Shown: positions 1-45,146 of the stretch, piece after piece | Numbering within the stretch: the first letter of the stretch is position 1 | Layout of the letters: every line of letters begins with the position of its first letter | Assembly (NCBI GenBank): GCA_035317605.1 | Contig: DATHGT010000258.1 | Coordinates: 18,477 to 82,476, forward strand | Reading direction: 5' to 3' | Length of the DNA: 64,000 nucleotides | Source of the DNA: Candidatus Acidiferrum sp. | Lineage (GTDB): Bacteria; Methylomirabilota; Methylomirabilia; Rokubacteriales; CSP1-6 | Notes under the pieces: model-generated | The model's input: only the letters and a program-made list of their open reading frames with translations | The model's database searches: none | Told to the model about the DNA's origin: nothing | Program-made: the position numbers and the translations under genes

Positions 1-2453
1 ACGGTGACCTTGGCCGTCGCCGTACTGACGTTGGCCGCGGCATCGGTCGCCTTGAACGTGATCGTGTACACCCGCCCGTTGCCGGTGCCCATCCGCTCCG
101 CGCGCAGCTGCACCGACTTGCAGTCGGCCGCGATCACGATGTCATTGGTCGTGTTGCCGTCTCCACCACTGTTGTTGGGCTCATCGCTGGTCACCTGGGC
201 GATCCGCACGCCGCCGACGCCGACACCGGGATCGCAATTGTCGCTGGCGCTCGTCACCAGGTCGGTGACCTTGACGGTCGCGTACTTGTGATTCGGCGGC
301 CACAACGCGATGGGCTGATTGTTCGTCGTGATGGTGGGACCCTGGGTGTCGTTGACGGTGACCTTGAAGTTGCACGTCGGACCGACCGAGCTCGTGCAGG
401 TGACCGTCGTCTCTCCGACCGCGAAGACCCCTGAGGGAGCGCACGTGACGGTGCCGCAGAAGCCCGTTGGGGTGGGCGACGGGTAGTTGACCACCGCGCC
501 GCACTGGCCGGGGGTATTCGAGAGGCTCAGGTTGGCCGGGCAGGCGAGGGCGCAATTCGGGTGGCGTTCGAAGGCGCCGATGTCGGTGCCGTCACTGGTC
601 GCGGCGTTGCCCACGCCCGCGTCGTCGAACGTGCGCGCTTTACCGCGCTGATCGAACGAGGCGCCCGCCGCCACGCCGGCGTCGATCGCGGCGCTGCCGG
701 GCAAGAGCTCCATCGTCTTGGTCGGGCCGCCGTTGTCCGCCAGCGGGGCCAGCATCGGGTTGGCGCCGATCAGATCACCGGTGCCGGTGAAGCCCGTGGC
801 CTCGGTCGCGACGCCGAGCAGGTTGTGGCCGTTGCTCGTCACGGCGCCGTCGACGTCGGGTCCGGGAATCGGCGCGCCGGTGGCATCGCCGGTGCCGTTG
901 GCCGCGGTGTTGCCTGCGATGATCGTGTTTTCCAGCGTCACGCCGCCGGGGCCCACGCGGATGCCGCCACCTGTACCTTCGGCCACCGGGCGCGGCGGCT
1001 TGTTCGCTCCCCCCTGATTGACACCAGTGTTGCCGGCCTGAGCGTTATTCGCGCTGATCGTCGCGTGCTTGATGTTCACGGTCGCCGCGTTGTTGTTCGT
1101 GATCGCGCCGCCATGGGCGAGGCCGCCGGCGCCGTGATTGCCACAGTTGAGACCACCGTCGGTCTGTCCGCCGTCGCCGCCGCTGCCACCCATGGCGAAG
1201 TTGTTGGCAAACGTCACGGTGTTGACGATGAGGCTTCCGCCATCGGCGAAGATTGCGCCTCCCCGCGCGCCACCGCCGTCACCGGCCTGATGCCCGCCCA
1301 GGCAGGTCGTGCCGAACGCATCCCCGCCCTGGCCACCGTTGGCCGCGGCCAGGTGGAACGTGGAGCTGCTGACCGTGACGTTGCCGAGGCTGTACAGACC
1401 GCCGCCGGCGGCGTCACCGGCGGGGTTCGCGCCGTTGCCACCCGTGCCCGAGTTGCCGCCGGTGGCGACGGTGTTCTCGAACGTGGTGGTGCTGATCGTC
1501 GCGGTTCCGCCGCCGATCCAGGCTCCGCCGCCCTGAGCCAATCCACCGAAGCCACCGTTCGTCTGGCCGTCCTGATTCTGGTTGCCGCCGTTACCGCCAT
1601 TCGCGGCGCTGGCCTCGATCCGCGAGCCGGTCATGTTGAGCGTGCCGCCTTCGAAGTAGATCGAGCCGCCCTTGGCGTTGGAGCCGGCGCCGTTGTTGAA
1701 GTTACCGCCGTTTCCCCCCGAGGCGGTGTTGCCCGTGAGCACGCTGTCCGTGACGATCACGGCGCCGGTCGCTCCGAGGCTGGCGAGGCCGCCGCCCAGG
1801 GCATCGAGGGTGGTGTGTTGATTGATGACGGTGTCGCCCTTGCCCACCGCCACGCACGACCGGACGACGACGTTGGTCAGCGTGACGCTGCCGCCGTTGT
1901 TGAGGATGCACCCGCCGGCGCGATTGACGTTGTTCAGCGCCGTCGGGTCGGTGCTGGCACCGCTGGTCCCGTCGTCGGCGGCCATGCCGCCCTGAACGAC
2001 CAGGTCCTGCAAGACGAGGGTGATCCCGGCGCCGGTGACGTGAAAGACGCGGTCGCGGAAACTGCCGGTATTCAGCCCGGCGGCATCGATGATCGTCGCG
2101 TTCGGCCCCGACGAACCGCCACCCACGATCGTGACCGTGTGAAGTGCCGTGGTGATGTCGAGGTCGCCGGTGGCCGCGGCGTTTTCTTGATTGGCGTTGG
2201 TCAGGGTGAGGCTGTACGTGGTCCCGGGTTGCAGGTTGATGACCACCGGGGTTCCGCTGAGATCGGCGTTGGCGGCGATGATCGCGCCGCGCAAGCTGCA
2301 ATCGTTGGGGGCGAGCGTGCACGCCGTCGCGGCAGCGTTGTCGTCCGTTCGATCGACGTCGAAACTCGCCGACCACGCGCGGTCCGAATACGCGAGCGAT
2401 GCGCCGACCACCACGACGAGTGTGAACAGCACGCAGGCGATGTTTCGTTTCAT
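1..2453 (-). CDS. Partial (C-terminus lies off the window) large secreted right-handed beta-helix / Gly-rich repeat protein with a C-terminal HYR-like domain
   Basis: Reverse-strand translation from ATG ~2453 begins with a signal peptide (MKRNIACVLFTLVVVVGASLAYS). It continues with many NGG/GGN-rich beta-helix-type repeats and a CSLRGAIIAAN motif. A Cys-rich segment (NCALACPANLSLSNTPGQCGAVVNYPSPTPTGFCGTVTCAPSG...TVTCTSS) is typical of HYR domains. There is no stop before position 1, so the ORF track did not list it; the + strand ORF 561..2477 is its low-complexity shadow. Confidence 0.6.
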   Translation of the reverse strand, partial: MKRNIACVLFTLVVVVGASLAYSDRAWSASFDVDRTDDNAAATACTLAPNDCSLRGAIIAANADLSGTPVVINLQPGTTYSLTLTNANQENAAATGDLDITTALHTVTIVGGGSSGPNATIIDAAGLNTGSFRDRVFHVTGAGITLVLQDLVVQGGMAADDGTSGASTDPTALNNVNRAGGCILNNGGSVTLTNVVVRSCVAVGKGDTVINQHTTLDALGGGLASLGATGAVIVTDSVLTGNTASGGNGGNFNNGAGSNAKGGSIYFEGGTLNMTGSRIEASAANGGNGGNQNQDGQTNGGFGGLAQGGGAWIGGGTATISTTTFENTVATGGNSGTGGNGANPAGDAAGGGLYSLGNVTVSSSTFHLAAANGGQGGDAFGTTCLGGHQAGDGGGARGGAIFADGGSLIVNTVTFANNFAMGGSGGDGGQTDGGLNCGNHGAGGLAHGGAITNNNAATVNIKHATISANNAQAGNTGVNQGGANKPPRPVAEGTGGGIRVGPGGVTLENTIIAGNTAANGTGDATGAPIPGPDVDGAVTSNGHNLLGVATEATGFTGTGDLIGANPMLAPLADNGGPTKTMELLPGSAAIDAGVAAGASFDQRGKARTFDDAGVGNAATSDGTDIGAFERHPNCALACPANLSLSNTPGQCGAVVNYPSPTPTGFCGTVTCAPSGVFAVGETTVTCTSSVGPTCNFKVTVNDTQGPTITTNNQPIALWPPNHKYATVKVTDLVTSASDNCDPGVGVGGVRIAQVTSDEPNNSGGDGNTTNDIVIAADCKSVQLRAERMGTGNGRVYTITFKATDAAANVSTATAKVT

Positions 2454-2569
2454 GGCTCCACGCTCCCACCCGAGTGACTTGAACACGGTCTATCGTTCGA
2501 ACGCGAGGCGACACCGAGCCGGTCCGGTCCCCTGGATACAGCGCGGGCCGACGGTCTGTCAACCCTTGC

Positions 2570-3225
2570 CTAGACCGACGACGACGGTGTCGAGGACGCC
2601 GGGCGGAGGGCACCCTCGCGACGGCGACGCACGGCTCGTCGGACGGCGTCCCCCAACCGGACGCCGAGCACGAGCACGACGATCGCGGCGTAGACGTATT
2701 GGTCCGTGCGGCCGACCTTGGCCAGCCACAGGAAGTGCAGCGCCGCGCACACCGCCGTGAAGTAGACGAGGCGGTGCAGGCGCTTCCAGTTGCGGGCGCC
2801 CAGGCGACGGATCATGCCGGTCGTCGACGTCGCGGCCAGCGGGATCAGGCTCGTGAGGGCCAGCATGCCGACCGTGATGTACGGGCGCTTGACGATGTCG
2901 GCGCCCATCTGGCCCCAGTTGAAGAAGTGATCCATGACGATCCACACGCTGAAGTGCACAGCGGCGTAGAAGAACGCGAAGAGTCCCAGCAGGCGGCGCA
3001 GCGGCATCTGCCAGGCCATGCCGGTCACGATGCGCAGCGGGGTCAGCGCGAGGCTCGCCAGCAGCAGGCGAAACGTCCAGTCGCCCAGCGTGTTGGTGAT
3101 GAAGCTGATCGGGTTGGCGGTGAGGTCGTCGTTCCAGGCCCGCCACCCGAGCAAGGCCAGCGGCATGAGCGCGACGATCCAGACGCCGACCTTGAGCGCG
3201 ATCCGGCCCCGCCGGCTCAGGACGA

Positions 3226-3229
<4 letters not shown>
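2570..3229 (-). CDS. msrQ: MsrQ (YedZ), the heme-b membrane subunit of the periplasmic methionine sulfoxide reductase MsrPQ
   Basis: The C-terminal 219 aa of ORF 2570..3886 align to the E. coli MsrQ layout ([18 protein letters not shown]..., 6 TM helices, conserved His in FYAAVHF and ALHFLWL). The likely start is a TTG overlapping the msrP TGA stop (TTGA). The upstream part of the listed ORF is an out-of-frame shadow of msrP. Confidence 0.85.
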
Positions 3230-4175
<946 letters not shown>

Positions 4176-4182
<7 letters not shown>

Positions 4183-4868
4183 CGATCCACCTCCGTGAAT
4201 GTGTAGCCCTGACCGTGCACGGTGAGGATGAACGCGGGACGGTCGGGGTCGGTTTCGAACTTGCGGCGCAGCCGCAGGATGTGCGTGTCGACGGTTCGCG
4301 TGGTGGGAAACCGTTCGTAGCCCCACACCTCGTCGAGCAACCGCTCGCGGGTGACGACCTCGCCGCGGTGCTCGAGCAGGTAGACGAGCAGCTCGAACTC
4401 CTTGCGGGTGAGCCCGACCGGGCGCCCGGCCCTGAACGCCTGGCGTCCGCGCGGCCGCACGCGCGCGTCGCCGAAGGCGAACTCTTCCACCTTGTGGCGC
4501 GGCCCGGGCCGGCGCAGCACCGCGCGCACCCGCGCCAGCAGCTCGCGCAGCGAGAACGGCTTGGTGATGTAGTCGTCGGCGCCCAGCTCGAGCCCGCGGA
4601 CACGGTCGCTCTCCTCGCCCCGCGCGGTGAGCATGATGATCGGCACGTCGATGCCCTGGCCCCGCAGCTCGCGGCACACGTCCCACCCGCTGAGCCCCGG
4701 CATCATGATGTCGAGCAGGATGAGGTCGGGCGCCTCCCGCGCGGCCACGGTGAGCGCCTCGCGTCCGTCCATGGCCGTGGAGGTCTGGTAACCCTCGAAG
4801 CGCAGGTTGTCCTCCAGACCGCGCACGATCTCCGGCTCGTCGTCCACGATGAGGATGCGCGACATCAC
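4176..4868 (-). CDS. OmpR/PhoB-family response regulator (HprR/CusR-like)
   Basis: The receiver domain shows [10 protein letters not shown]...D...[14 protein letters not shown] winged-helix C-terminus shows ...[27 protein letters not shown]...[13 protein letters not shown]. Confidence 0.9.
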
Positions 4869-5602
4869 GACCCCTTGGTGATCTCCGCGAGCAGGCGCTT
4901 GGCGTCGGGAGCGTCCTTCATGGTCCAGTCCGCCAGGTTGAGCGGGGCCTTCTCCTCGACCACCGCCGTCAGCTCCTTGCGCGCCTCGTCGGGCCGCCCG
5001 AGCTTGATCAGCGTCTTGCCGAGCCCGACCCGCAGCATCGTGTAGCGCGGAGACAGCTCGAGGCCCTTGCGGAAGTACTCCTCGGACTTGGCGAGGTCGC
5101 CGCCGAGCAGGGCCGGCACCTCGTAGTAAACGCTGCCGGCCAGCACGTACACGGGCGGGAAGCGGGCGTCGAGGTCGAGGATGGCGCTGATCTCACGCTT
5201 GACCTCGGGCAGCAGGAACAGCGAACGGACGACCCCGTTGGTCTGGCCCCAGCGCGCGGTGTTGGTCGCGTACCAGAAGCGCGCGACCACGTCGCGGGGG
5301 TCGGCGTCCACCACGCGCTTGGCGGCCTGGCGTCCGGTGTCGTAGGCCTTCAGCTTCTCCTCCTGCGTCTGGGCGCGGATGTCGCCCCAGATGAGCTCGA
5401 TCTGGGCGAGGGCCACCAAGTGCTCGGGCCGCGGATCGGCCGCGGCCGCCTGCTCGAGGCCCTGGCGAAGCGTGTCGAGCCGCGTGGGGTCTTCGTGATA
5501 GCGCACGGAAACCCGCCGCAGCTCGGCGACCAGCGGCGACTGCGCCGCGGCCTCCACCGTGGCGGTGAGCAGCAACAGGGTCGCGAGCCACAACCATTTC
5601 AT
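4865..5602 (-). CDS. Periplasmic TPR-like helical-repeat protein encoded between the kinase and the regulator
   Basis: The signal peptide is [21 protein letters not shown], followed by a ~245-aa helical-repeat protein. ATG 5602 overlaps the HK stop (ATGA) and the protein's stop overlaps the RR start (4865/4868). The N-terminal ~280 codons of ORF 4865..6451 are a shadow of the HK gene. Confidence 0.6.
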
Positions 5603-7146
5603 GTCGTCTCCGTCGTGATCGGAATGCGAATCGTGAAGCGGCTGCCCGCTCCGGGCGCACTCTCCACGATAACCCGGCCGCCGTGAGCCTCGGCCACGTG
5701 GCGCACGAGGGCCAGCCCCACCCCGCTGCCGCGCCGGCCCTGGGTCTCGCTGTGTCCAACCCGGTAGAACTTCTCGAAGATCCTGGCCTGCTCGGCGCGC
5801 GGGATCCCGATCCCTTCGTCGGCGACTGACAGCGCCAGGGCATCGTCGGTGACCGTCGCCTCGACGCGAACGGTCTTGCGGTCCGCCGAATACTTGATCG
5901 CGTTGTCGACGAGATTGGCCAGCGCCTGGGCGACGGCATCGGCGTCGAGCGGCACCTCCGGCAGGTCCGGGGCGACGTGGACGTCGACCTTGAAGCCCTC
6001 TCGGGTCAGCGGATAGGCGAAGGCGTCGACCACGTCGCGCACCAGCGGCTCGATCGCGGTGGGCACGCGCTCGTAGCGACGGCGCCCCCCCTCGATGCGC
6101 GAGAAGTCGAGCACGTTGTCGATCAGGCGCGAGAGCCGCTCGCTCTCGCGGGTGATCACCCGGTAGTACTCGCGGCGAGCGGCCTCGTCGCGCACGCGGT
6201 CCATCTCCAGGGTCTCGCCGAACATTCGGATCACCGACAGCGGAGTCTTCAGGTCGTGGGAGACGTTGGCCACGAAGTCGGACTTGAGCCGCGCCATCTC
6301 GCTCTCGCGTCGCACGAGGCGATAGGTGACCACCAGCCCCGCCACGATCACGACGAGCAGGACCCCGAACGCGCTCGTGAACAGCATGATCTGCCGCCGC
6401 ACCGAGTGCCGTGCGGACGCGCCCGGCGGCTGGTAGAGCGCCACCCGCCACGTGGGCAGCGCCTGGCGAAACGGCGCCGTGACGACCAGGCTCGCCCCGG
6501 CCACGGCCGCGGCGTTGGAGATCGGGCGTCCGGTCTCGTCCACGATCACGCAGATGATCGGTGAATCGAGCGCCCTCAGGGTACGGTCGAGGACTTCGTG
6601 CTGGAGCGTGGCGGGGTCGCGCGTGAGGACGGCGAGCACGGGGGCGCCGTCCCGGCCGCGCAGCACGGTGGCCAGCAGCGAGCGGTCACCCGCGACCACG
6701 TCGCGCCGGCCGCCGCGTTCCCAGAGCCCGCGCGAGACTTCGCCGAGGAGCGCCGCGAACACGGCGGCGTCGCCCTCGGCCGGCGCGGCGGGGTAGATCA
6801 ACCGGCCGCCGCGGTCGAACAGGTACAGGCGTTGGACGAGCGGGTTCGCGCGCGCGAAGGCCTCGAGCGTCTCGCGCGCGAGGTCTCCGCGCTCGACGAT
6901 GGTCGTGAGCCGCCCGAGCAACTCGTCGTCGCGCTGGCGCAGCAGCATCTCGATCTTGTCGGCGGCCATCGCGGCCACGTCGCGCGCCTGCTCGCGGAAG
7001 AGCAGATCGGCCGAGCGCTCCCACTGGCGCAGCGACACGTAGCCGAGCCCGGCCACGATCAGGGCGGGAATCACGATGGCCAGCGCGAAGATCCAGAACC
7101 GTCGCGCCCCGGTTTCGCCGGGGCGGTCCTGCTGAGATCGGACCAC
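5599..7146 (-). CDS. Sensor histidine kinase with a periplasmic sensing domain (HprS/CusS-like)
   Basis: TM1 is FWIFALAIVIPALIVAGLGYV, followed by a ~200-aa periplasmic domain and TM2 IMLFTSAFGVLLVVIVAGLVV. The H-box is VANVSHDLKTPLSVI. The HATPase region shows LANLVDNAIKYS...DEGIGIP...GSGVGLALV. The start is GTG at 7146. Confidence 0.85.
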   Translation of the reverse strand: MVRSQQDRPGETGARRFWIFALAIVIPALIVAGLGYVSLRQWERSADLLFREQARDVAAMAADKIEMLLRQRDDELLGRLTTIVERGDLARETLEAFARANPLVQRLYLFDRGGRLIYPAAPAEGDAAVFAALLGEVSRGLWERGGRRDVVAGDRSLLATVLRGRDGAPVLAVLTRDPATLQHEVLDRTLRALDSPIICVIVDETGRPISNAAAVAGASLVVTAPFRQALPTWRVALYQPPGASARHSVRRQIMLFTSAFGVLLVVIVAGLVVTYRLVRRESEMARLKSDFVANVSHDLKTPLSVIRMFGETLEMDRVRDEAARREYYRVITRESERLSRLIDNVLDFSRIEGGRRRYERVPTAIEPLVRDVVDAFAYPLTREGFKVDVHVAPDLPEVPLDADAVAQALANLVDNAIKYSADRKTVRVEATVTDDALALSVADEGIGIPRAEQARIFEKFYRVGHSETQGRRGSGVGLALVRHVAEAHGGRVIVESAPGAGSRFTIRIPITTETT

Positions 7147-7150
7147 GCCG

Positions 7151-7690
7151 CTATCCCCGCTCGGCGAGGAGTCGGCGGATCACCGTTTCGGTTTCGTCGT
7201 AGGCGCCCTCGCCGATGTGGCGATGGCGCACGATGCCCTTGCGGTCGACGAGCACTGCGGTCGGCCAGGCCCACACGCCGAACCGCTGCCAGATCGCCAT
7301 GTCGTTGTCCAGGACGACCGGATAGAGGATGCCGAGCCTGCGCACCGCCGCCCGCACGCTGTCGGTCGGCTTCTCCCAGGAGAACTCCGGCGTGTGCACG
7401 CCCACGATGGTGAGCCCGTCACGCTCGTACTTGCCGTGCCAGACCCGCAACTGCGGGATCACGTTCTTGCAGTTGATTCACCCGTAGGTCCAGAAATCCA
7501 CCAGCACCACGCGCCCCCGCAGCGCCGCCGGCGCCAGGGGCTCGCTGTTGATCCACGGCCCGCCCACGATCTCCGGCGCCGGCCGATCGAGCGCCGGCCC
7601 CCTGCCCTGCGCGCCACCGTGAAGCGCGATGCCGACGAGCGCGAGACAAACCAGGGCCGCAATAAACGCCGACCGAAGCACCAAGATCAT
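7151..7690 (-). CDS. TlpA/ResA-like thioredoxin-fold thiol:disulfide oxidoreductase, predicted selenoprotein with an in-frame UGA (Sec) at 7478..7480 in a UxxC motif
   Basis: ORF 7478..8068 ends ...RVVLVDFWTYG at a TGA. The same frame continues INCKNVIPQLRVWHGKYERDGLTIVGVHTPEFSWEK... as ORF 7151..7462. The joined sequence is VLVDFWTYG-U-INCKNV, the canonical W-x-x-C-x-x-C redox site with the first Cys replaced by TGA. A 7-bp hairpin (caactgc...gcaguug) begins 2 nt after the UGA. The N-terminus has a signal/anchor (MILVLRSAFIAALVCLALVGIALHG) and the stop is a TAG 4 nt before the HK start. Confidence 0.7.
7448..7475 (-). promoter_or_regulatory. SECIS-like stem-loop immediately 3' of the UGA in the TlpA-like gene
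   Basis: On the - strand the sequence is UGA-au-CAACUGC-aagaacgugauccc-GCAGUUG, a perfect 7-bp stem with a 14-nt loop. Confidence 0.5.
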
Positions 7691-7752
7691 GTCTGAGACA
7701 GTGCGCCAGGCGTGAGCCGCTGTTGTCAACGCAATGTCAAATGTGTTCGAGC

Positions 7753-7767
7753 GCGGGCTTTGCCCGC
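7753..7767 (-). terminator. Putative terminator hairpin after fumB, followed by a promoter-like TTGACA...TTGACA region ahead of the TlpA-like operon
   Basis: GCGGGCaaaGCCCGC is a perfect 6-bp stem 5 nt after the fumB stop. Downstream on the - strand the sequence acatTTGACAttgcgTTGACAacagc precedes the ATG at 7690. Confidence 0.4.
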
Positions 7768-7772
7768 GAAGT

Positions 7773-8462
7773 TTAGACGATCTCCTCTTCGCAGGAGGCT
7801 TGCTCGCCGAAGCGGCCCATGGCGAACGGGGGGAGGTCGCGGTAGACCTCGCGCAGGCGGACGTTGATCTCGCGGTTGGCCAGCGCGAAGAGGCTGTGGC
7901 CCTCGCGGTCGCCCTCGACCAGGAACGGGCCCAGGCGCTCGACCTCGAGCACCCACAGGGCCTGGGCGATGCCCAGCTCGCGCAGCCAGTGGACGTCCAC
8001 CACGCGCTTGATCGAGCGGCCGTACGTCGCCCCGAGGCCGTAGCCGACGGTGGTGAGATACACGGCACCGTGGGGCACGTACCACTCTCGATACGCGGTC
8101 TCGGTGAGCCCGGCCTTGCCCACGATCACCTTCGCGCCGGTCTTCTCGAACCAGCGGCTCATCGACTTACCGAAGCGGAAGCTCGCGGTCGCGGTCACCG
8201 CCTCGACCGCGTGGGTGCCGTCGGCCCGCACCGTCGCCGCCGGCGAGCAGTGGAAGTTGACGTTGGTCAACGCCCGGACGCTCTCGGGCAATCCCGCCCC
8301 CTCGTCCACGACCTTGCGGTACACGCCTTCCCGCGCGGTGTAGAGGATGCCGCTGAGATAGACGACGTCGCCCAGCTTGAGCCGCGCGAGGTCGGCGTCG
8401 CTCACGGGGGTGGTGAGGGCGACCTCGTCCATCGCCACGTCGTCGAGGCGCGCGATCGTCAC
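7773..8462 (-). CDS. fumB: Class I (Fe-S) fumarate hydratase / L(+)-tartrate dehydratase, beta subunit (C-terminal domain protein)
   Basis: VTIARLDDVAMDEVALTTPVSDADLARLKLGDVVYLSGILYTAREG...KVIVGKAGLTE... matches this family. The GTG start overlaps the alpha-subunit TGA (GTGA). The upstream part of ORF 7773..9200 is a shadow of the alpha gene. Confidence 0.85.
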   Translation of the reverse strand: MTIARLDDVAMDEVALTTPVSDADLARLKLGDVVYLSGILYTAREGVYRKVVDEGAGLPESVRALTNVNFHCSPAATVRADGTHAVEAVTATASFRFGKSMSRWFEKTGAKVIVGKAGLTETAYREWYVPHGAVYLTTVGYGLGATYGRSIKRVVDVHWLRELGIAQALWVLEVERLGPFLVEGDREGHSLFALANREINVRLREVYRDLPPFAMGRFGEQASCEEEIV

Positions 8463-9403
8463 TCGATGCCCTCGCGCCGGTAGTAGTCGGTGAACCATTG
8501 CGGGTCGGTCCGGAACTCCACGCGACCGTCGGGATGGATGCGCGCGGTCGCCCGCCTGGAGGACAAGCAAAACGAGTGCATGCCCACCGGCATTCCACCC
8601 GTGTGGGAGTACGCGACTTCGACATGGGTGGCGACGACCAGCGACGTCCCCGCGAAGCCCATGGCCCCGATCCCGATGTAGTTGCCGAGCGCGGTCAGCT
8701 CTTCTTCCAGCCGAGCCACGACGGGATCGGGATTGCGGCTGCCCACCACGCGCAGGCAGGCCGCCTCCTTGCCCAGGCGCACGCACGTGTCCTTGGCGCC
8801 GCCGATGCCGAGGCCCACGATGGCGGGCTGGCAGGCCAGCCCGCGCTTGCCGAACTGCACGAGCGTGTCGACGAAGAACCGCTTGATACCGGGAATGCCG
8901 TCGGCCGGAAACAGCATGCGGTAATCGCTGCCGAACAGTCCCCCTTTGTGCACGGTCGTGACGTCGATCCAGTCGGCGCCGGGCTCGAACGCGTAGGTGA
9001 TCTCCGGCGCGTGGATGCCCACGTTGTTGTCGTGGTCGGCGCGGGTGAGCGGATGCACGCGGTTCGGACGCAGCGGGATCGCCGCGGTGGCGTCGGCGGT
9101 GGCCCGACGCAGCGCGCGCTCGAGAGCGACGAACCCGCCCTCGACCACGGCCTCGTTGCCGGCGCGCACGTAGTAGCGGGGCAGCCCGGTATCCGCGCAC
9201 ATCGGCCGCCGATCTTCCGTCGCGATGTTCCAGTTCTCGAGCATCTCGGTCAGCACGAAGCGCGGCAGCTTGCTCGTCTCGAGGTCGCGCGCCTGCCGGA
9301 TCCCCTCGCGATAGTCCGGCGGAATGTCGATGGCCGCCCGCGCCATCAACTCCCGCGCGGTGTCCTCGACGAGCTTGATCGCGATCGTCCCGCCCATGGT
9401 CAC
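8459..9403 (-). CDS. fumA: Class I fumarate hydratase / Fe-S hydro-lyase, alpha subunit (N-terminal domain protein)
   Basis: The protein shows MTMGGTIAIKLVEDTARE...RRPMCADTGLPRYYVRAGNEAVVEGG...GLACQPAIVGLGIGGAKDTC. The Cys ligands are typical of the Fe-S hydro-lyase tartrate/fumarate family. Confidence 0.85.
   Translation of the reverse strand: MTMGGTIAIKLVEDTARELMARAAIDIPPDYREGIRQARDLETSKLPRFVLTEMLENWNIATEDRRPMCADTGLPRYYVRAGNEAVVEGGFVALERALRRATADATAAIPLRPNRVHPLTRADHDNNVGIHAPEITYAFEPGADWIDVTTVHKGGLFGSDYRMLFPADGIPGIKRFFVDTLVQFGKRGLACQPAIVGLGIGGAKDTCVRLGKEAACLRVVGSRNPDPVVARLEEELTALGNYIGIGAMGFAGTSLVVATHVEVAYSHTGGMPVGMHSFCLSSRRATARIHPDGRVEFRTDPQWFTDYYRREGIE

Positions 9404-34114: not shown

Positions 34115-34118
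<4 letters not shown>
32910..34118 (+). CDS. CoA-transferase family III (CaiB/BaiF) protein
   Basis: The protein shows LDGLTVLDFTRVLAGPYCTRLLADLGARVIKIE...VENFVPGVMAKLGLDY. GTG start. Confidence 0.85.
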
Positions 34119-34531
<413 letters not shown>

Positions 34532-34887: not shown

Positions 34888-35748
34888 ATGTCCGATACCG
34901 TGCACGTGGCCAGCGGCAAGGTGCGAGAACTGTACGCGCTCGACGACGACCGGCTGCTGCTCGTGGCCTCCGACCGGATCTCGACCTTCGACGTCGTGCA
35001 TCCGACCGCCATCCCCGACAAGGGCCGCGTGCTCGCCGGCCTCGCCGCGTTCTGGTTCACGCGGACGCGCACGATCTGCCTCAATCACCTGTTGACCGTG
35101 CGACCCGACGGCCGCTCGACCGAATGCCGGCGGCTGGCCATGCTGCCCATCGAGTGCGTGGTGCGCGGCTACCTCGCCGGTTCGGGGTGGCGCGACTACC
35201 GGACGCGCGGCGAGGTCTGCGGTCACCGCCTGCCCGCCGGGCTCCGCGAGTCCGACCGCCTGCCCGAGCCGATCTTCACGCCCGCCACCAAGGCCCAGAC
35301 CGGCCACGACGAGAACATCACCCGCGAGGAGGCCGCCTCCGTGGTCGGCGCCGAGCGCCTCGCCGAGGTCGAGCGCCTCTCGCTCGAGCTGTATCGCTTC
35401 GCGTCGGAGTACGCCCGCGAGCGCGGGATCGTCATCGCGGACACCAAGTTCGAGTTCGGCCTCGATCGCGCGGGACGCGTGGTGCTGGGTGACGAGGCGC
35501 TGACACCGGATTCGTCCCGCTTCTGGCCCGCCGACCAGTACGCGCCCGGCGGTCCGCAGCCGTCGTTCGACAAGCAGTTCGTCCGCGACTACTGCGAGCG
35601 CACGGGATGGGACAAGACCCCGCCCGGACCGGAGCTTCCGCCGGACGTGGTCTCCGGCACGCGGGCGCGCTACGTCGAAGCGTTCGAGCGCCTGACGTCG
35701 ATCGAGTTCGACGGCTACCTCGCCGACCCGACCGTGGTCCTGGGTTAA
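34888..35748 (+). CDS. purC: Phosphoribosylaminoimidazole-succinocarboxamide synthase (SAICAR synthetase)
   Basis: The protein shows MSDTVHVASGKVRELY...LLVASDRISTFDVV...GIVIADTKFEFG. GGAGG sits 9 nt before ATG 34888 (M20 of the listed ORF). Confidence 0.9.
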   Translation: MSDTVHVASGKVRELYALDDDRLLLVASDRISTFDVVHPTAIPDKGRVLAGLAAFWFTRTRTICLNHLLTVRPDGRSTECRRLAMLPIECVVRGYLAGSGWRDYRTRGEVCGHRLPAGLRESDRLPEPIFTPATKAQTGHDENITREEAASVVGAERLAEVERLSLELYRFASEYARERGIVIADTKFEFGLDRAGRVVLGDEALTPDSSRFWPADQYAPGGPQPSFDKQFVRDYCERTGWDKTPPGPELPPDVVSGTRARYVEAFERLTSIEFDGYLADPTVVLG

Positions 35749-36533
35749 GCGCCGGGCACGGGAGTCCGATCGACGGGCGCGATGGCGCCCATGTCGGACT
35801 CGAGCTGGAGCGTGTCGGCGATCTTGCTGTAGCTCGAGAACATCTGCGCCACGCCGAGGATCTCCATCACCCCGCGCTCGCCGACACCGAGCCGTCGCAT
35901 CTGACCCAGGTGCAGCGCCGTCCCGAAGCGCGAGCGTGACGTGAGCGAGACCGCGAAGGCCAGCGCTTCCTTCAGCCGCCGGGTCAGCGCGTGGTCGTCG
36001 AACGCGTGACGGAGCGCGCCCCAGAAATCGGCGAGATACCCGGGATCGTGGGCGAGCGTCAGGAACGGCGCGGGCATGTCGCCGTAGAACGCGCGGATCT
36101 CGTCGAAGACGGCGCGAGCTTCATCGCCCGGTTCGGTCGGCGGCGGCAGGATCTCAGCGGGTAATCCGTCGGCGACCACGTTGAGCGCGTTGGTGATGCC
36201 GACGACGGACGCGGCCTCGTACCAGAGCGCGTCCTCCTTCATCCCCTGCAGCTTCCCGGCCGCAGTGTGCGCTTCCACTCAGTAGCGACAGGCATTCACC
36301 CCGCTGACGACGGCCGCGACCATCTCCTTCTCCGCTCGTGTGAACTCGCCGGGCCCCATCGCCCGCTTCATCGCCCGCCCGTGAGGACCGCCGAACCCGG
36401 GATCCCACGCCATCACCCGACTCATCGCCGGCGGCTCCACGAAGTCATACCCGAACCACGCCTTCGACAGCTCGAACAGCCTGCGCGCCGCCTCCGGATA
36501 CTCCGACGCGTCTCGAATCCTCACCGTGGTCAT
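35745..36533 (-). CDS. AhpD/carboxymuconolactone-decarboxylase-family peroxidase-related protein, predicted selenoprotein with an in-frame UGA (Sec) at 36279..36281 (C-x-Y-U motif)
   Basis: ORF 36279..36533 ends ...EKEMVAAVVSGVNACRY at a TGA, and ORF 35745..36278 continues in the same frame from the next codon (GTG) as VEAHTAAGKLQ.... The joined sequence VSGVNACRY-U-VEAH matches the CMD/AhpD-core motif N-x-C-x-Y-C-x-x-x-H with the second Cys replaced by TGA. A very strong SD (GGAGGAGG) sits before ATG 36533. A 7-bp hairpin lies 13 nt after the UGA. Confidence 0.65.
36247..36266 (-). promoter_or_regulatory. SECIS-like hairpin 3' of the UGA in the AhpD-like gene
   Basis: On the - strand CUGCGGC-cgggaa-GCUGCAG forms a 7-bp stem with a GG-containing loop, beginning 13 nt downstream of the UGA. 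Confidence 0.45.
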
Positions 36534-43428: not shown

Positions 43429-44427
43429 CTATCTCCCCGCAACGTCGGCCGCGCGGCCGGTCCTGGCGGATTCCACGATGGCCTCGAGCACCGCGATGTT
43501 GGCGATACCTTCCTCACCCGAGACCTCGGGCCGCCCGCGCTCGCGTACGCAGCGCGCGAATTCCTCCAGCTCCTCGACCAGCGGCTCGGTCGCATCCAGC
43601 GGCACCGCCGAGCGCTCGGACTCGCCCCGGCGCAGGATCGACAGACGCGTGCCGCGGGCCTCGTACCAGGCCTGGGCCTCGGTCCCGTGGACGCCGATCC
43701 ACTCCGTTCGGGTGGCGGGCAGCCACGAGGTGCCGAGATACCCGAGCGCGCCCGACGCGAACTCGAACAGGATCGAGGTGACGTCCTCGACGTCGATCTC
43801 GAGCACGAGCCGGCGCGACATCGCCATCACCCTGGCGATGGGCCCGAGCAGATATTGATACGTGTCGACGTGGTGGATGCCGAGGCTGGTCATGGCCCCG
43901 CCCGGCGTCTCCGCGCGGTCGGCCCGCCACATGCCGGCCCGGATCGTGGTCGCGAAGGCGTAGTCAGCCGACATGTTGCCCTCGATCTGGCCGACGCGTC
44001 CGAGCGCGCCCTCGGCGATGAGCCGCTTGAGGCCGCGGCTCGCCGGCAGCCGGCGCCGCTGGTGGCCGAGGGCGAGGACCACGCCAGCGGCGCGGCACAC
44101 CTCGGTCGCGCGCCGCGCGTCGGCCACCGTGAGCGTGAACGGCTTGTCCACGAACACGTGCTTGCCGGCCCGCGCCGCCGCCACGATCTGCTCGGCGTGC
44201 AGGGAGTGCGGGGTGGTGATCACCACGCCCTCGACCTCGGGATCGGCGAGCACGGCGTCGAACGTGGGCACGTCGCGGCAGCCGTGCTTGCGCGCGAAAC
44301 CCGCACGGTGATCGGCCGAGCGGCTGGTACACGCCACCAGCGAAAGTCCGGTTCCCTGCCGTGCGGCGTCGGCCAGCGTGCCCGCCCACCGCCCCGTGCC
44401 GATCGACGCGACGCGGAGGGGCGTCAT
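43429..44427 (-). CDS. Gfo/Idh/MocA-family NAD(P)-dependent oxidoreductase
   Basis: LRVASIGTGRWAG is the Rossmann region, and the family fold runs throughout. Confidence 0.85.
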   Translation of the reverse strand: MTPLRVASIGTGRWAGTLADAARQGTGLSLVACTSRSADHRAGFARKHGCRDVPTFDAVLADPEVEGVVITTPHSLHAEQIVAAARAGKHVFVDKPFTLTVADARRATEVCRAAGVVLALGHQRRRLPASRGLKRLIAEGALGRVGQIEGNMSADYAFATTIRAGMWRADRAETPGGAMTSLGIHHVDTYQYLLGPIARVMAMSRRLVLEIDVEDVTSILFEFASGALGYLGTSWLPATRTEWIGVHGTEAQAWYEARGTRLSILRRGESERSAVPLDATEPLVEELEEFARCVRERGRPEVSGEEGIANIAVLEAIVESARTGRAADVAGR

Positions 44428-45146
44428 GCGCTCGCGGGAACGCCCAGCACGACACGCTCATGCAGCGCGCTGATGATCTCGTCGACGCCGGCGCACGCCC
44501 AGATCTTGAAGAAGGGCGACTGCTGGAGCGCGGTGAACTCGCGGTTGGAGCGCTCGCTGGTCTGCTCCGGCGTCTCGCCCGGCCGTGCGCCCCGGATGCG
44601 ACCGACCACCGAGTCCTTGTGATAGATCGCGGGGAACTCGACGTAGTGATAGAGGTATTTCAGGTCGCGCGTGTAGAAGACCGCGACCGGAATCGACTGC
44701 CACGTGCGGCCGTTCTTGTCGTTGAGGAACTCGGCCATGATGTCGGCGTTGCTGTCCGGCGTCTCGGCCAGGCTGGGCCGGGCGGCGCTGCTGAACTTCT
44801 GGCCGTCGCGCGGGAAGATGCGTAGCTCGAAGGGCGCGGCCTCGGCCACGCGCGCGAACACCGGCACGTCGCGGCGACAGTCCGACGACCACTCCTCCGA
44901 GATCACCAGCATCTTCGCGGGCCCGCCGGGCTGGGCGGCCAGCCACTCGAGCGCCTCGACCTGCTCGGGCTGAAGATGCGTCGCGTCGTACGTCGCGCGC
45001 AGGTGGCCGCTCTGGTCGCGCCGCTTGCTGCCCATCGAGCCCTCGCGCGCGAGGTTCTGCGGGGTGGCGACGAAGCGCACGTACTCGTCGAACGTCATGC
45101 CCTTGGCGAACCGCTCTGGTGTGACCACGCTCTGGCTGCGATCCAC
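44424..45146 (-). CDS. Thioredoxin-like-fold protein (family unassigned)
   Basis: The protein shows ...AKMLVISEEWSSDCRRDVPVFARV.... The SD AAGGAGG sits 6 nt before GTG 45146. Confidence 0.55.
   Translation of the reverse strand: MDRSQSVVTPERFAKGMTFDEYVRFVATPQNLAREGSMGSKRRDQSGHLRATYDATHLQPEQVEALEWLAAQPGGPAKMLVISEEWSSDCRRDVPVFARVAEAAPFELRIFPRDGQKFSSAARPSLAETPDSNADIMAEFLNDKNGRTWQSIPVAVFYTRDLKYLYHYVEFPAIYHKDSVVGRIRGARPGETPEQTSERSNREFTALQQSPFFKIWACAGVDEIISALHERVVLGVPASA

What the first reader, a model, noticed from the sequence alone, without database searches (positions are those of the whole stretch)
7151..7690. Selenocysteine TlpA/ResA-like oxidoreductase hidden as two ORFs split by an in-frame UGA (UxxC)
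Two adjacent same-frame ORFs (7478..8068 and 7151..7462) read through TGA as ...VVLVDFWTYG-U-INCKNVIPQL.... This is exactly the W-x-x-C-x-x-C thiol-disulfide active site of TlpA/ResA/redoxin proteins with the N-terminal Cys codon replaced by TGA. A perfect 7-bp stem-loop starts 2 nt after the UGA. The protein has a signal/anchor sequence and is the first gene of the MsrPQ operon. A standard annotation pipeline would call a 196-aa and a 103-aa fragment and miss this.
Basis: partly seen in the sequence, partly recalled or inferred. Interest (0 to 1): 0.75.

Follow-up and report, generated by a model that had tools for sequence, protein, structure and literature searches.

The report
Selenocysteine redoxin gene split by UGA
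This is very probably a real, exported thioredoxin-like enzyme whose active-site cysteine is replaced by selenocysteine; annotation pipelines cut it into two fragments, but it belongs to a kind of selenoprotein that is already known.

Summary
One gene lies on the minus strand at 7690..7151, with a single in-frame TGA (7480..7478) in ...DFWTYG-U-INC.... The TGA sits exactly where homologues carry the first Cys of a CxxC redox site.

It is not an error or a pseudogene:
- An independent assembly carries the same TGA, as do relatives down to 66% identity and at least 120 metagenome contigs.
- Coding is conserved on both sides of the TGA, and many close homologues have Cys at that position.
- TGA is the usual stop codon in this window, so the code is not reassigned.

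A hairpin 25 nt downstream of the UGA (5-bp GC stem, loop AGUU) meets all four criteria of the published bacterial SECIS (selenocysteine insertion sequence) model. Its stem co-varies across subfamilies. Such a hairpin is present in 84% of Sec forms, against 8% of Cys forms and 11% of codon-shuffled controls.

The closest solved relative is the C-terminal domain of M. tuberculosis DipZ, not TlpA or ResA proper. The gene heads a tightly packed cluster: redoxin, histidine kinase, TPR protein, response regulator, MsrP, MsrQ. Linkage to MsrP recurs in other gene orders.

A second candidate selenoprotein (AhpD-like, CxxU) lies in the same window. No selA, selB, selD or tRNA-Sec could be checked.

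Verdict: a genuine new member of a known kind, of moderate interest.

The parts
7151..7690 (-). Full selenoprotein gene: 178 residues plus the stop (Sec at residue 71). It has an N-terminal hydrophobic signal or anchor and a thioredoxin-like (AhpC-TSA / Thioredoxin_8 / Redoxin) domain.
7607..7690 (-). N-terminal signal peptide or membrane anchor (MILVLRSAFIAALVCLALVGIALHGGAQ). The extent is approximate.
   Evidence: Read directly from the sequence. Orthologues all have a hydrophobic stretch followed by an A-Q motif. No signal-peptide predictor was run.
7478..7480 (-). In-frame UGA, proposed Sec71, the attacking residue of the U-I-N-C redox motif.
   Evidence: It aligns with the first active-site Cys of DipZ and of about 75 Cys-form genes.
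7469..7471 (-). TGC codon for Cys74, the resolving residue of UxxC.
7442..7459 (-). Proposed SECIS hairpin. The 5-bp core stem is CCCGC (7457..7453) with GCGGG (7448..7444), and the apical loop AGUU is at 7452..7449. The flanking positions 7459/7458 and 7443/7442 pair in many relatives but not here.
   Evidence: Model criteria are from PMC13188914.
7435..7463 (-). Possible extended SECIS: a lower stem CGUG (7463..7460) with CACG (7438..7435) around the core hairpin. Support is weaker.
   Evidence: RNAfold MFE of -14.1 kcal/mol. The lower helix is paired in 61% of cells, with some changes on both sides.
7448..7475 (-). It cannot form at the same time as the core hairpin.
   Evidence: 89% paired, but covariation is no better than in shuffles. 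It is broken in L089-type genes, where the other hairpin is perfect.
7724..7740 (-). Direct repeat TTGACA-ttgcg-TTGACA, 34-50 nt upstream of the start codon. It is a candidate promoter -35 element and an operator for the OmpR-type regulator.
   Evidence: It is conserved as TT[G/C]ACA-N5-[T/G]TGAC[A/G] in loci that carry the kinase and regulator, including the Cys orthologues.
5599..7146 (-). Sensor histidine kinase (HisKA + HATPase_c). It starts 4 nt after the redoxin stop codon.
4865..5602 (-). Secreted TPR / TAtT-like protein of 245 aa.
4176..4865 (-). OmpR-family response regulator (Response_reg + Trans_reg_C).
3226..4182 (-). MsrP-like periplasmic molybdoenzyme (Oxidored_molyb).
2570..3229 (-). 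MsrQ-like haem-b membrane protein (Ferric_reduct).
   Evidence: with coordinates converted from L207.

Best explanation
The stretch 7690..7151 (minus strand) is one gene for an exported thioredoxin-fold thiol-disulfide oxidoreductase of about 178 residues. It belongs to the DipZ-C / NHLRC2 'FWxYxCINC' clade. The attacking active-site cysteine is replaced by selenocysteine, encoded by UGA at 7480..7478, giving the motif U-I-N-C.

Decoding is proposed to work as in other bacteria. While the ribosome waits at the UGA, a hairpin 25 nt downstream recruits SelB carrying Sec-tRNA(Sec). The hairpin has the stem CCCGC/GCGGG and the loop AGUU, with a G-U dinucleotide in the loop. The amino acids P-Q-L-R are encoded by this hairpin, so the RNA constrains the protein.

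After export the selenol/thiol pair would act as a reductant, or possibly a peroxidase, for oxidised envelope proteins. Expression would be co-ordinated with MsrPQ through the histidine kinase and OmpR-type regulator encoded in the same cluster. This would make the cluster an envelope repair module for oxidative or reactive-chlorine stress.

What is shown: the gene structure, conservation of the UGA, Sec/Cys pairing, the hairpin with its covariation, and the gene linkage. What is inferred: actual Sec insertion, export, the catalytic role and the inducing signal.
For: Sequence and fold.
- There is one in-frame TGA inside a thioredoxin-like domain (AhpC-TSA 2.7e-13, Thioredoxin_8 1.3e-11, Redoxin 5e-10).
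- The TGA aligns with the first Cys of FWAYSCINC in M. tuberculosis DipZ (2HYX, E = 3e-38).

Sec/Cys pairs.
- Close full-length homologues (60-73% identity) have Cys at this position.
- About 30 of the best 120 database clusters are fragments of 102-108 aa that begin just after the same position.

The TGA is verified in DNA.
- It is present in L001-L005 (including a Candidatus Rokubacteria MAG at 66% identity), L085, L086 and the independent assembly L208.
- It is present in at least 120 metagenome contigs and in Sec paralogues of Dehalococcoidia MAGs.

No reassignment of the code. TGA terminates 23 of 36 predicted genes in the window.

The SECIS hairpin.
- It meets the four published model criteria. 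The loop is 4 nt, the stem 5 bp, G is the second loop base and is followed by U, the spacing from the UGA is 25 nt, and the MFE is -14.1 kcal/mol.
- A hairpin of at least 5 bp with a GU-containing loop occurs in 84% of 122 distinct Sec-form sequences. It occurs in 8% of 75 Cys-form genes and 11% of codon-shuffled controls.
- There are 19 distinct stem/loop combinations with compensatory changes, such as CCCGC/GCGGG, UCCGC/GCGGA, UGCCG/CGGCA, UCCCU/AGGGA and GCCUU/AAGGC.
- None of 500 shuffles reaches the observed covariation score, and slid-partner controls score lower.
- The loop leucine codon is the rare TTG in 87 of 87 Sec forms. TTG makes up 5.1% of Leu codons in the window. Cys orthologues use CTG and the hairpin is decaying in them.

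Sec use in the organism.
- A second gene in the window has a TGA at the CxxC site of an AhpD-like domain, with its own downstream hairpin. All 120 best relatives of that gene are split at the same place.
- A Methylomirabilota MAG with 63 predicted selenoprotein genes is reported in PMC13188914.

Context.
- The six same-strand genes have gaps or overlaps of a few bases and no predicted terminators.
- In relatives, MsrP follows the Sec redoxin directly in 9 loci and after the kinase and regulator in 10 more, 3 of which also carry the TPR gene.
- Met-rich secreted peptides resembling MrpX lie upstream in several loci (PMC4436054).
Against: - No selA, selB, selD or tRNA-Sec was found. I checked the 64-kb window and about 40 related loci. 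The rest of the genome is not available.
- There is no experimental evidence of selenium incorporation.
- In this window the core stem is only 5 bp, and the next two positions (U/U and A/C) do not pair.
- The loop G-U lies about 7 nt further from the UGA than I recall for E. coli fdhF, although it is inside the range the model allows.
- Rfam gave no match. I do not know whether Rfam holds a bacterial SECIS family, so this says little.
- The functional role rests only on homology and gene neighbourhood.
- MsrP itself does not need a thiol reductant, so the link to MsrPQ may be regulatory rather than catalytic.
- Cys orthologues keep the kinase and regulator but lack MsrPQ.
Confidence: 0.85

Rival explanations
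1. The gene is a pseudogene, or the TGA is a sequencing or assembly error, and the real or ancestral codon was TGC/TGT.
For: TGA is one substitution away from TGC or TGT. Close Cys-form orthologues exist.
Against: The identical TGA is present in an independent assembly (L208). It is also present in relatives of 66-88% identity and in at least 120 contigs with 133 distinct sequences. Both flanks stay in frame and keep coding-type base composition (GC3 0.95/0.97). A co-varying hairpin accompanies the TGA forms only.
Confidence: 0.02
2. The UGA is read, but not as selenocysteine. Either the stop codon is reassigned (UGA as Trp or Gly) or there is near-cognate read-through inserting Cys or Trp.
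For: No Sec machinery could be demonstrated for this genome. UGA read-through by near-cognate tRNAs is known to occur (from general knowledge).
Against: TGA ends 23 of 36 predicted genes in the window, so there is no global reassignment. Homologues carry Cys, not Trp or Gly, at this column. The downstream hairpin fits the SelB-dependent SECIS model, including the loop G-U. A second gene has a TGA at a classic CxxU site. The phylum is reported to be rich in selenoproteins.
Confidence: 0.04
3. The UGA is a true stop and two separate products are made: a short exported peptide of 70 residues and a 103-residue thioredoxin-fold fragment starting at GTG 7462.
For: This is what gene callers report in every database entry.
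Against: Neither piece would be a complete thioredoxin fold. The split removes the first half of the active site and separates the signal peptide from the domain. The 15-nt gap between the pieces encodes I-N-C-K-N, including the second active-site Cys, and is conserved in frame. In L085 and L086 the downstream ORF is called from the codon immediately after the TGA instead. The start of the supposed second gene therefore follows the TGA, not a conserved initiation site.
Confidence: 0.02
4. The gene is a selenoprotein, but the working SECIS is the first reader's 7-bp stem (CAACUGC/GCAGUUG) that starts 2 nt after the UGA, not the +24..+37 hairpin.
For: The stem is perfect in the window and pairs in 89% of cells across 122 Sec forms. 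Slid-partner controls give only 17-52%. RNAfold prefers it for L001.
Against: Its 14-nt loop and 9-nt spacing fall outside the published model, which allows a loop of 3-9 nt and a spacing of 16-37 nt. Its covariation is no better than in shuffles (345 of 500 reach the observed score). Its 5' arm was fixed by my search pattern and by the I-N-C codons. It is broken in L089/L120-type and L099-type genes, where the other hairpin is perfect. With the ribosome's A site on the UGA, roughly the next dozen nucleotides lie inside the ribosome. The 5' arm at +3..+9 would therefore be unwound at the moment of decoding (established knowledge of ribosome footprints; an inference here).
Confidence: 0.08

Closest known systems
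[quoted passage not shown]
   Same: They share the thioredoxin fold, the same Pfam families, Sec as the first residue of UxxC, abundant Cys homologues, and a SECIS hairpin inside the coding sequence just downstream of the UGA.
   Different: I could not retrieve the catalogued example sequences, so identity with any listed family is untested. This clade has the distinctive FWTYxUINC motif of DipZ-C/NHLRC2-type domains, carries an export signal, and is linked to MsrPQ and a two-component system. None of that is mentioned in the reviews I searched.
C-terminal thioredoxin-like domain of Mycobacterium tuberculosis DipZ (PDB 2HYX, 5CYY)
   Same: It is the best solved relative (E = 3e-38 over residues 38-176). 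The motif DFWAYSCINC aligns with DFWTYG-U-INC, and the HTPEF and WP motifs are shared.
   Different: DipZ has Cys, not Sec. Its domain is fused to a CcdA/DsbD-like membrane electron transporter, whereas this protein stands alone behind a signal peptide.
TlpA / ResA / CcmG (DsbE) extracytoplasmic thiol-disulfide reductases
   Same: They have a membrane-anchored or secreted thioredoxin fold with W-x-x-x-C-x-x-C. The weak matches are ResA 6e-15 and TlpA 9.5e-7.
   Different: Scores are far below the curated cut-offs (55.6 against 170 for ResA; 28.8 against 230 for TlpA). There are no cytochrome c maturation genes nearby. The active-site dipeptide is I-N rather than E-P, V-P or G-P.
NCBIfam NF041054, ResA-like WAxxUGC motif-containing selenoprotein
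   Same: It is a ResA-like thioredoxin-fold protein with Sec in the redox motif.
   Different: The motif differs (U-G-C against U-I-N-C), as does the architecture (a 354-position profile). The score is 31.3 against a cut-off of 300, so this gene is not a member.
Bacterial SECIS consensus (bSECISearch model as described in PMC13188914; E. coli fdhF as the prototype)
   Same: It is a hairpin within the ORF with a small apical loop, G followed by U among the first loop positions, a spacing of 16-37 nt, and adequate stability.
   Different: From memory, the loop G-U here lies about 7 nt further from the UGA than in fdhF. No bulged U is evident. The Dehalococcoidia paralogues place their hairpin about 8 nt closer to the UGA.
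MsrPQ envelope methionine-sulfoxide repair systems and their regulators: E. coli HprSR-MsrPQ (recalled from memory) and Azospira MrpX-YedY1 (PMC4436054)
   Same: MsrP and MsrQ homologues are co-clustered with a dedicated sensor and regulator. Some relatives also carry a secreted Met-rich peptide.
   Different: As far as I know, no thioredoxin-like protein, let alone a selenoprotein, is part of those described systems. The regulator in Azospira is an ECF sigma/anti-sigma pair, not a two-component system.

Membership tests
Bacterial selenoprotein gene | The in-frame UGA aligns with Cys in homologues (a Sec/Cys pair). | tested here: met
   Cys is present at this column in DipZ, in about 75 Cys-form genes, and in close orthologues P0001-P0041.
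Bacterial selenoprotein gene | UGA-containing orthologues occur in other organisms, with coding conserved on both sides of the UGA. | tested here: met
   There are at least 120 contigs. Named sources include a Ca. Rokubacteria MAG and several Dehalococcoidia/Chloroflexota MAGs.
Bacterial selenoprotein gene | A bacterial SECIS lies downstream of the UGA: a loop of 3-9 nt, an upper stem of 4-16 bp, G in the first two loop positions, a spacing of 16-37 nt, and an MFE of -7.5 kcal/mol or lower (PMC13188914). | tested here: met
   The loop is AGUU, the stem 5 bp, the spacing 25 nt and the MFE -14.1 kcal/mol.
Bacterial selenoprotein gene | The genome encodes selA, selB, selD and tRNA-Sec. | not testable with these tools
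   None is present in the 64-kb window or in 40 related loci. Other contigs of the genome cannot be reached. Indirect support comes from a second UGA gene at an AhpD CxxU site and from Methylomirabilota being reported as rich in selenoproteins.
Bacterial selenoprotein gene | Selenium is incorporated at the UGA position (75Se labelling or mass spectrometry). | not testable with these tools
   This needs an experiment.
Bacterial selenoprotein gene | UGA is not generally reassigned in the organism. | tested here: met
   TGA terminates 23 of 36 predicted genes in the window.
TlpA / ResA thiol-disulfide oxidoreductases (NCBIfam NF047696, NF002854) | The score reaches the curated family cut-off. | tested here: not met
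   ResA scores 55.6 bits against a cut-off of 170, and TlpA 28.8 against 230.
TlpA / ResA thiol-disulfide oxidoreductases (NCBIfam NF047696, NF002854) | A thioredoxin fold with a redox-active xxC pair after a conserved Trp, plus an N-terminal anchor or signal. | tested here: met
   Pfam hits and the motif FW-T-Y-G-U-I-N-C with a hydrophobic N-terminus. The fold is inferred from sequence homology to solved structures. No structure was predicted.
DipZ-C / NHLRC2 / SOQ1-type thioredoxin-like domain | Strong sequence similarity to the solved domains, including the FWxYxCINC active-site block. | tested here: met
   2HYX gives 3e-38, SOQ1 (7DJJ) 1e-28 and NHLRC2 (6GC1) 4e-26.
MsrPQ operon | MsrP (Oxidored_molyb) and MsrQ (Ferric_reduct) lie on the same strand with no intervening terminator. 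| tested here: met
   Three genes (kinase, TPR protein, regulator) lie between the redoxin and MsrP. Co-transcription itself was not tested.

The most novel reading that the evidence does not exclude
The selenocysteine redoxin may not be simply a repair enzyme. It may be the periplasmic redox-sensing partner of the histidine kinase that starts 4 nt after its stop codon. On this reading, oxidation of the selenol by hypochlorite or peroxide would be relayed to the kinase, and the OmpR-type regulator would then switch on the operon, including msrPQ, through the conserved TTGACA-N5-TTGACA repeat. That would be a selenium-based two-component stress sensor.

The evidence does not exclude it. The redoxin-kinase-regulator trio persists in Cys orthologues that lack MsrPQ. 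The upstream repeat tracks the presence of the kinase and regulator.

A lesser novel reading is that the whole FWxYxUINC clade is a large soil selenoprotein family missing from current catalogues. That clade includes the NHL-repeat forms with a Cys-Sec pair.
Probability: 0.15. Interest if true: 0.65.

Novelty: new member of a known kind. Interest (0 to 1): 0.4.

Why it matters
- **Annotation.** Public gene calls from JGI, ENA and NCBI-derived sources split this gene, and at least 120 relatives, into meaningless fragments. No NCBIfam model reaches its cut-off, so automated pipelines will keep missing it. The co-varying SECIS alignment and the FWxYxUINC motif give a simple way to recover the family.
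- **Biology.** The gene places a selenoprotein in the cell envelope next to MsrPQ, a dedicated two-component system and, in relatives, Met-rich scavenger peptides. This suggests that soil Methylomirabilota/Rokubacteria and other lineages use selenium for envelope defence against oxidants or reactive chlorine species.
- **Limits.** It does not overturn anything. UxxC thioredoxin-fold selenoproteins and coding-region SECIS hairpins are well established.

Tried and rejected
- **Rfam.** A scan of the whole window at gathering thresholds found nothing. I do not know whether Rfam holds a bacterial SECIS family, so this is uninformative.
- **tRNA-Sec.** ARAGORN found none in the window or in 40 related loci. 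Its only call is a 90-nt 'tRNA-Asn' at 8996..9085, inside the fumarase alpha gene, probably a false positive.
- **First in-frame TGA screen.** With strict composition thresholds it found only this gene plus gene boundaries and antisense frames. It missed the AhpD-like gene, which turned up through the Pfam survey and a relaxed screen.
- **Covariance model.** R1, built from the 54-nt alignment, did not shift registers for subfamilies with 5-7-nt loops. It also scored Cys-form genes at 15-61 bits, because it is dominated by coding similarity. I therefore used my own register-free hairpin tally for covariation.
- **Promoter and terminator scan.** Nothing was found in 2400..8000.
- **Literature.** A search for Rokubacteria plus selenocysteine gave nothing relevant. 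Searches for NHL, DipZ or MsrP together with selenoproteins gave nothing either.
- **Genome-collection scan.** It returned mostly Cys forms because one search peptide contained Cys. The metagenome DNA-pattern scan was the productive route.
- **Considered and dropped.** The ferredoxin-thioredoxin reductase gene (34115..34531) and the molybdopterin oxidoreductase gene (47581..49614) are not further selenoproteins. The first is all-Cys in the translation. The second is one uninterrupted ORF with all its domains.
- **Structure prediction.** I did not run it, because the sequence match to solved structures was already strong.
Full report
**What is in the sequence**

Read on the minus strand, window 7690..7151 is a single frame of 179 codons: MILVLRSAFIAALVCLALVGIALHGGAQGRGPALDRPAPEIVGGPWINSEPLAPAALRGRVVLVDFWTYG-TGA-INCKNVIPQLRVWHGKYERDGLTIVGVHTPEF...AERG-TAG. 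The internal stop is TGA at 7480..7478. The 196-aa length of the upstream piece is only an effect of taking the first start after a stop. On the source contig, gene callers start it at the ATG equivalent to window 7690, giving 70 aa, and call the 103-aa piece from GTG 7462. With Cys substituted for the stop, the protein matches AhpC-TSA (2.7e-13), Thioredoxin_8 (1.3e-11) and Redoxin (5e-10) across residues 54-163, spanning the stop.

**It is not an error, a pseudogene or a reassigned codon**

- The window is part of ENA metagenome contig ERZ27268012:k141_62674 (95.7 kb). An independent Logan assembly of run SRR7026200 carries the identical gene with the same TGA (identical 110-nt stretch).
- Relatives at 84-88% identity (L001-L004) have TGA at the same codon, with both flanks conserved in frame. 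So does a Candidatus Rokubacteria MAG at 66% (L005) and two further contigs (L085, L086).
Together with the loci fetched earlier these gave 133 distinct sequences.
- In the protein database, about 30 of the best 120 clusters are fragments of 102-108 aa beginning just after this position. The best full-length relatives (60-73% identity) read FWTYGCINC.
- TGA ends 23 of 36 predicted genes in the window, so the code is standard.

**The RNA element**

Downstream of the UGA the window reads AUCAACUGCAAGAACGUGAUCCCGCAGUUGCGGGUCUGGCACG. Two mutually exclusive hairpins can be drawn.

- It is 89% paired across 122 distinct Sec-form sequences, but its covariation is no better than in column shuffles.
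- Its 5' arm is fixed by the I-N-C codons, and by my search pattern.
- It is broken in subfamilies where the other hairpin is perfect.
- Its loop size and 9-nt spacing fall outside the published bacterial SECIS model.

*The second hairpin.* CCCGC pairs with GCGGG and the loop is AGUU. This is alignment columns 24-37, or window 7457..7444.
- It satisfies all four model criteria quoted in PMC13188914. The loop is 3-9 nt, the stem at least 4 bp, G lies within the first two loop positions (here followed by U), the spacing of 25 nt is within 16-37, and the MFE of -14.1 kcal/mol is below -7.5.
- Across the Sec forms the stem changes by compensatory substitutions. Examples are CCCGC/GCGGG, UCCGC/GCGGA, UGCCG/CGGCA, UCCCU/AGGGA, GCCUU/AAGGC and CCCUU/AAGGG, 19 stem/loop combinations in all.
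- The loop G stays at +28..+31 in 100 of 103 cases.
- On the gapless alignment, none of 500 shuffles reaches the observed covariation score, and all slid-partner controls are lower.
- A hairpin of at least 5 bp with a GU-containing loop is present in 84% of Sec forms. It is present in 8% of 75 Cys-form genes at the homologous place and in 11% of codon-shuffled Sec sequences.
- The loop U-U comes from a Leu codon that is TTG in 87 of 87 Sec forms with P-Q-L, although TTG is only 5.1% of Leu codons in this window.
- The closest Cys orthologues have CTG there. One keeps the stem with loop AGCU and one has lost the hairpin. This is the pattern expected once selection on the RNA is lifted.

A lower stem, CGUG/CACG, may extend the element in this clade. 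Its support is weaker, at 61% paired. Dehalococcoidia Sec paralogues carry a different hairpin about 8 nt closer to the UGA, GUAC/CGUGCC/GUAC.

**Does the organism use selenocysteine?**

No selA, selB, selD or tRNA-Sec lies in the window or in 40 related loci.

Indirect support is good.
- A second gene in the window (36533..35745, minus strand) has TGA at 36281..36279 in ...GVNACRY-U-VEAHTAAG.... This is the CxxC(U)xxxH site of the AhpD core domain, which spans it (TIGR00778, 3.8e-13). A 7-bp hairpin lies at +17..+36.
- All 120 best database relatives of that gene are C-terminal fragments split at the same place. One is labelled Methylomirabilota.
- AhpD-like and CMD-like CxxU proteins are listed selenoprotein families. 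A Methylomirabilota MAG with 63 predicted selenoprotein genes is cited in PMC13188914.

**What kind of protein it is**

- The best solved relative is the C-terminal thioredoxin-like domain of M. tuberculosis DipZ (2HYX, E = 3e-38). DFWAYSCINC aligns with DFWTYG-U-INC.
- The next best are the thioredoxin-like domains of SOQ1 and NHLRC2. ResA and TlpA are much more distant, at 1e-8 to 5e-6.
- NCBIfam ResA, TlpA and the WAxxUGC selenoprotein model all score far below their cut-offs.

The label 'TlpA/ResA-like' is therefore right at the level of fold and chemistry but not of family. The N-terminus is a hydrophobic signal or anchor followed by a conserved A-Q motif in orthologues. I infer export from this; no predictor was run.

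**Context and likely function**

The gene is followed on the same strand by five others: a HisKA histidine kinase (4-nt gap), a secreted TPR/TAtT-like protein, an OmpR-type response regulator, MsrP and MsrQ. Gaps or overlaps are only a few bases, and no terminator-like sites are predicted.

Among 49 short-form Sec loci with enough downstream DNA:
- 9 have MsrP immediately after the redoxin;
- 7 have kinase, regulator and MsrP;
- 3 have the window's order with the TPR gene;
- 1 has TPR and MsrP.

Linkage to MsrP is therefore kept through rearrangements. Cys orthologues keep the overlapping kinase and the regulator but have no MsrPQ.

A direct repeat, TTGACA-N5-TTGACA (7740..7724), lies upstream. 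It is conserved as TT[G/C]ACA-N5-[T/G]TGAC[A/G] wherever the kinase and regulator are present, including the Cys orthologues. It is absent where MsrP follows directly. Its 11-bp period suits an OmpR-family operator; this is an inference.

Several relatives carry a secreted Met/Lys/Asp-rich peptide (13-30% Met) just upstream. It recalls MrpX, the hypochlorite-scavenging peptide that works with a MsrP homologue in Azospira (PMC4436054).

I therefore read the cluster as an inducible envelope module against oxidant or reactive-chlorine damage. The Sec redoxin would reduce oxidised cysteines, or peroxides, alongside MsrPQ's repair of methionine sulfoxide. A selenol would be useful there because it is more nucleophilic and its oxidised forms are more readily reduced back (general chemistry summarised in PMC13188914). 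This functional reading is inference from homology and neighbourhood. A role as redox partner of the kinase is not excluded.

**Comparison with what is known, and novelty**

UxxC thioredoxin-fold selenoproteins with coding-region SECIS hairpins have been predicted since 2004-2008. They are tabulated in PMC13188914 and PMC2398784 under names such as 'Prx-like thiol:disulfide oxidoreductase' PF00578, 'Redoxin family protein' PF08534 and 'Thiol-disulfide isomerase-like' cd02966. I could not fetch the example accessions, so I cannot say whether this exact clade is already listed. None of the reviews searched mentions DipZ, NHL or MsrP in this connection, and no NCBIfam model captures the protein. 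I rate it a new member of a known kind. It is a sound catch of a mis-annotated gene, with a well-supported SECIS and an interesting neighbourhood, but it would not surprise a specialist.

**Also seen**

- 44 of the 135 loci are long forms in which the same domain is fused to NHL repeats, like NHLRC2 and SOQ1. Their motifs are C-U-I-N-C or G-U-I-N-C.
- Dehalococcoidia MAGs carry Cys and Sec paralogues about 1.3 kb apart.

Noticed in passing
window 35745..36533 (minus strand); TGA at 36279..36281: A second candidate selenoprotein gene. It is an AhpD/CMD-like protein reading ...GVNACRY-U-VEAHTAAG... (CxxU at the AhpD CxxCxxxH site), split into 84-aa and 177-aa ORFs. A 7-bp hairpin, CUGCGGC/CGGGAA/GCUGCAG, lies at +17..+36. 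All 120 best database relatives are C-terminal fragments split at the same place, and one is labelled Methylomirabilota.
   Followed up: partly
window 7724..7740 (minus strand); also upstream of the redoxin gene in L001, L002, L005, L085, L100, L114, L149, L209, L210: A conserved direct repeat, TT[G/C]ACA-N5-[T/G]TGAC[A/G], lies 35-50 nt upstream of the redoxin start codon. It is present wherever the kinase and regulator follow, in both Sec and Cys forms. It is absent where MsrP follows directly. It is a candidate operator of the OmpR-type regulator and/or a -35 element.
   Followed up: partly
L087 5403-5666, L096 6463-6729, L098 383-661, L104 1563-1847, L127 591-839, L173 3262-3552 (oriented so that the redoxin gene is on the + strand): Small secreted peptides rich in Met, Lys and Asp (13-30% Met, with a signal peptide) lie directly upstream of the Sec redoxin in several relatives. 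They resemble the hypochlorite-scavenging peptide MrpX, which works with a MsrP homologue in Azospira (PMC4436054). The window's own cluster has none.
   Followed up: partly
44 loci from the pattern scan, e.g. L101, L113, L121, L163, L166: Long-form Sec proteins of about 480-650 aa. The same thioredoxin-like domain, with C-U-I-N-C (adjacent Cys-Sec) or G-U-I-N-C, is fused to NHL repeats, like eukaryotic NHLRC2 and SOQ1. No NCBIfam model is above its cut-off, and the selenoprotein reviews I searched do not mention NHL.
   Followed up: partly
L027, L038, L044, L050, L060, L064 (Dehalococcoidia/Chloroflexota MAGs): Cys paralogue near 3124, Sec paralogue near 4350-4400: Tandem paralogues about 1.3 kb apart, one with Cys (FWTYTCVNC) and one with TGA (FWTY[IT]-U-INC). 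The Sec copy has a different hairpin placed closer to the UGA (GUAC/CGUGCC/GUAC at +17..+30).
   Followed up: partly
window 8996..9085 (+ strand): ARAGORN calls a 90-nt tRNA-Asn inside the fumarate hydratase alpha-subunit gene. Rfam reports no tRNA there. It is probably a false positive.
   Followed up: partly
L209-L212 (Cys orthologues), gene at 8001-8546: In close Cys-form orthologues the SECIS position is a relic. L210 keeps the stem UCCCGC/GCGGGA, but the loop is AGCU (Leu CTG instead of TTG). L209 has lost the hairpin. This suggests a fairly recent Sec-to-Cys replacement. These loci keep the kinase and regulator but lack the TPR and MsrPQ genes.
   Followed up: yes
window 34115..34531 (minus strand) and 44424..45146 (minus strand): Further redox genes lie in the window: a ferredoxin-thioredoxin reductase catalytic-subunit homologue (all-Cys CPC/CAC/CHC motifs, no in-frame TGA) and a Thioredoxin_9 protein.
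   Followed up: partly
window 7750..7772 (minus strand): A GC-rich hairpin, GCGGGC-aaa-GCCCGC, lies just after the fumarase beta-subunit stop codon and before the TTGACA repeat. It has no U-tract, so the terminator scan did not report it. L085 has a similar hairpin, gcgggccaagcccgc, in the 110 nt upstream of its redoxin gene.
   Followed up: no
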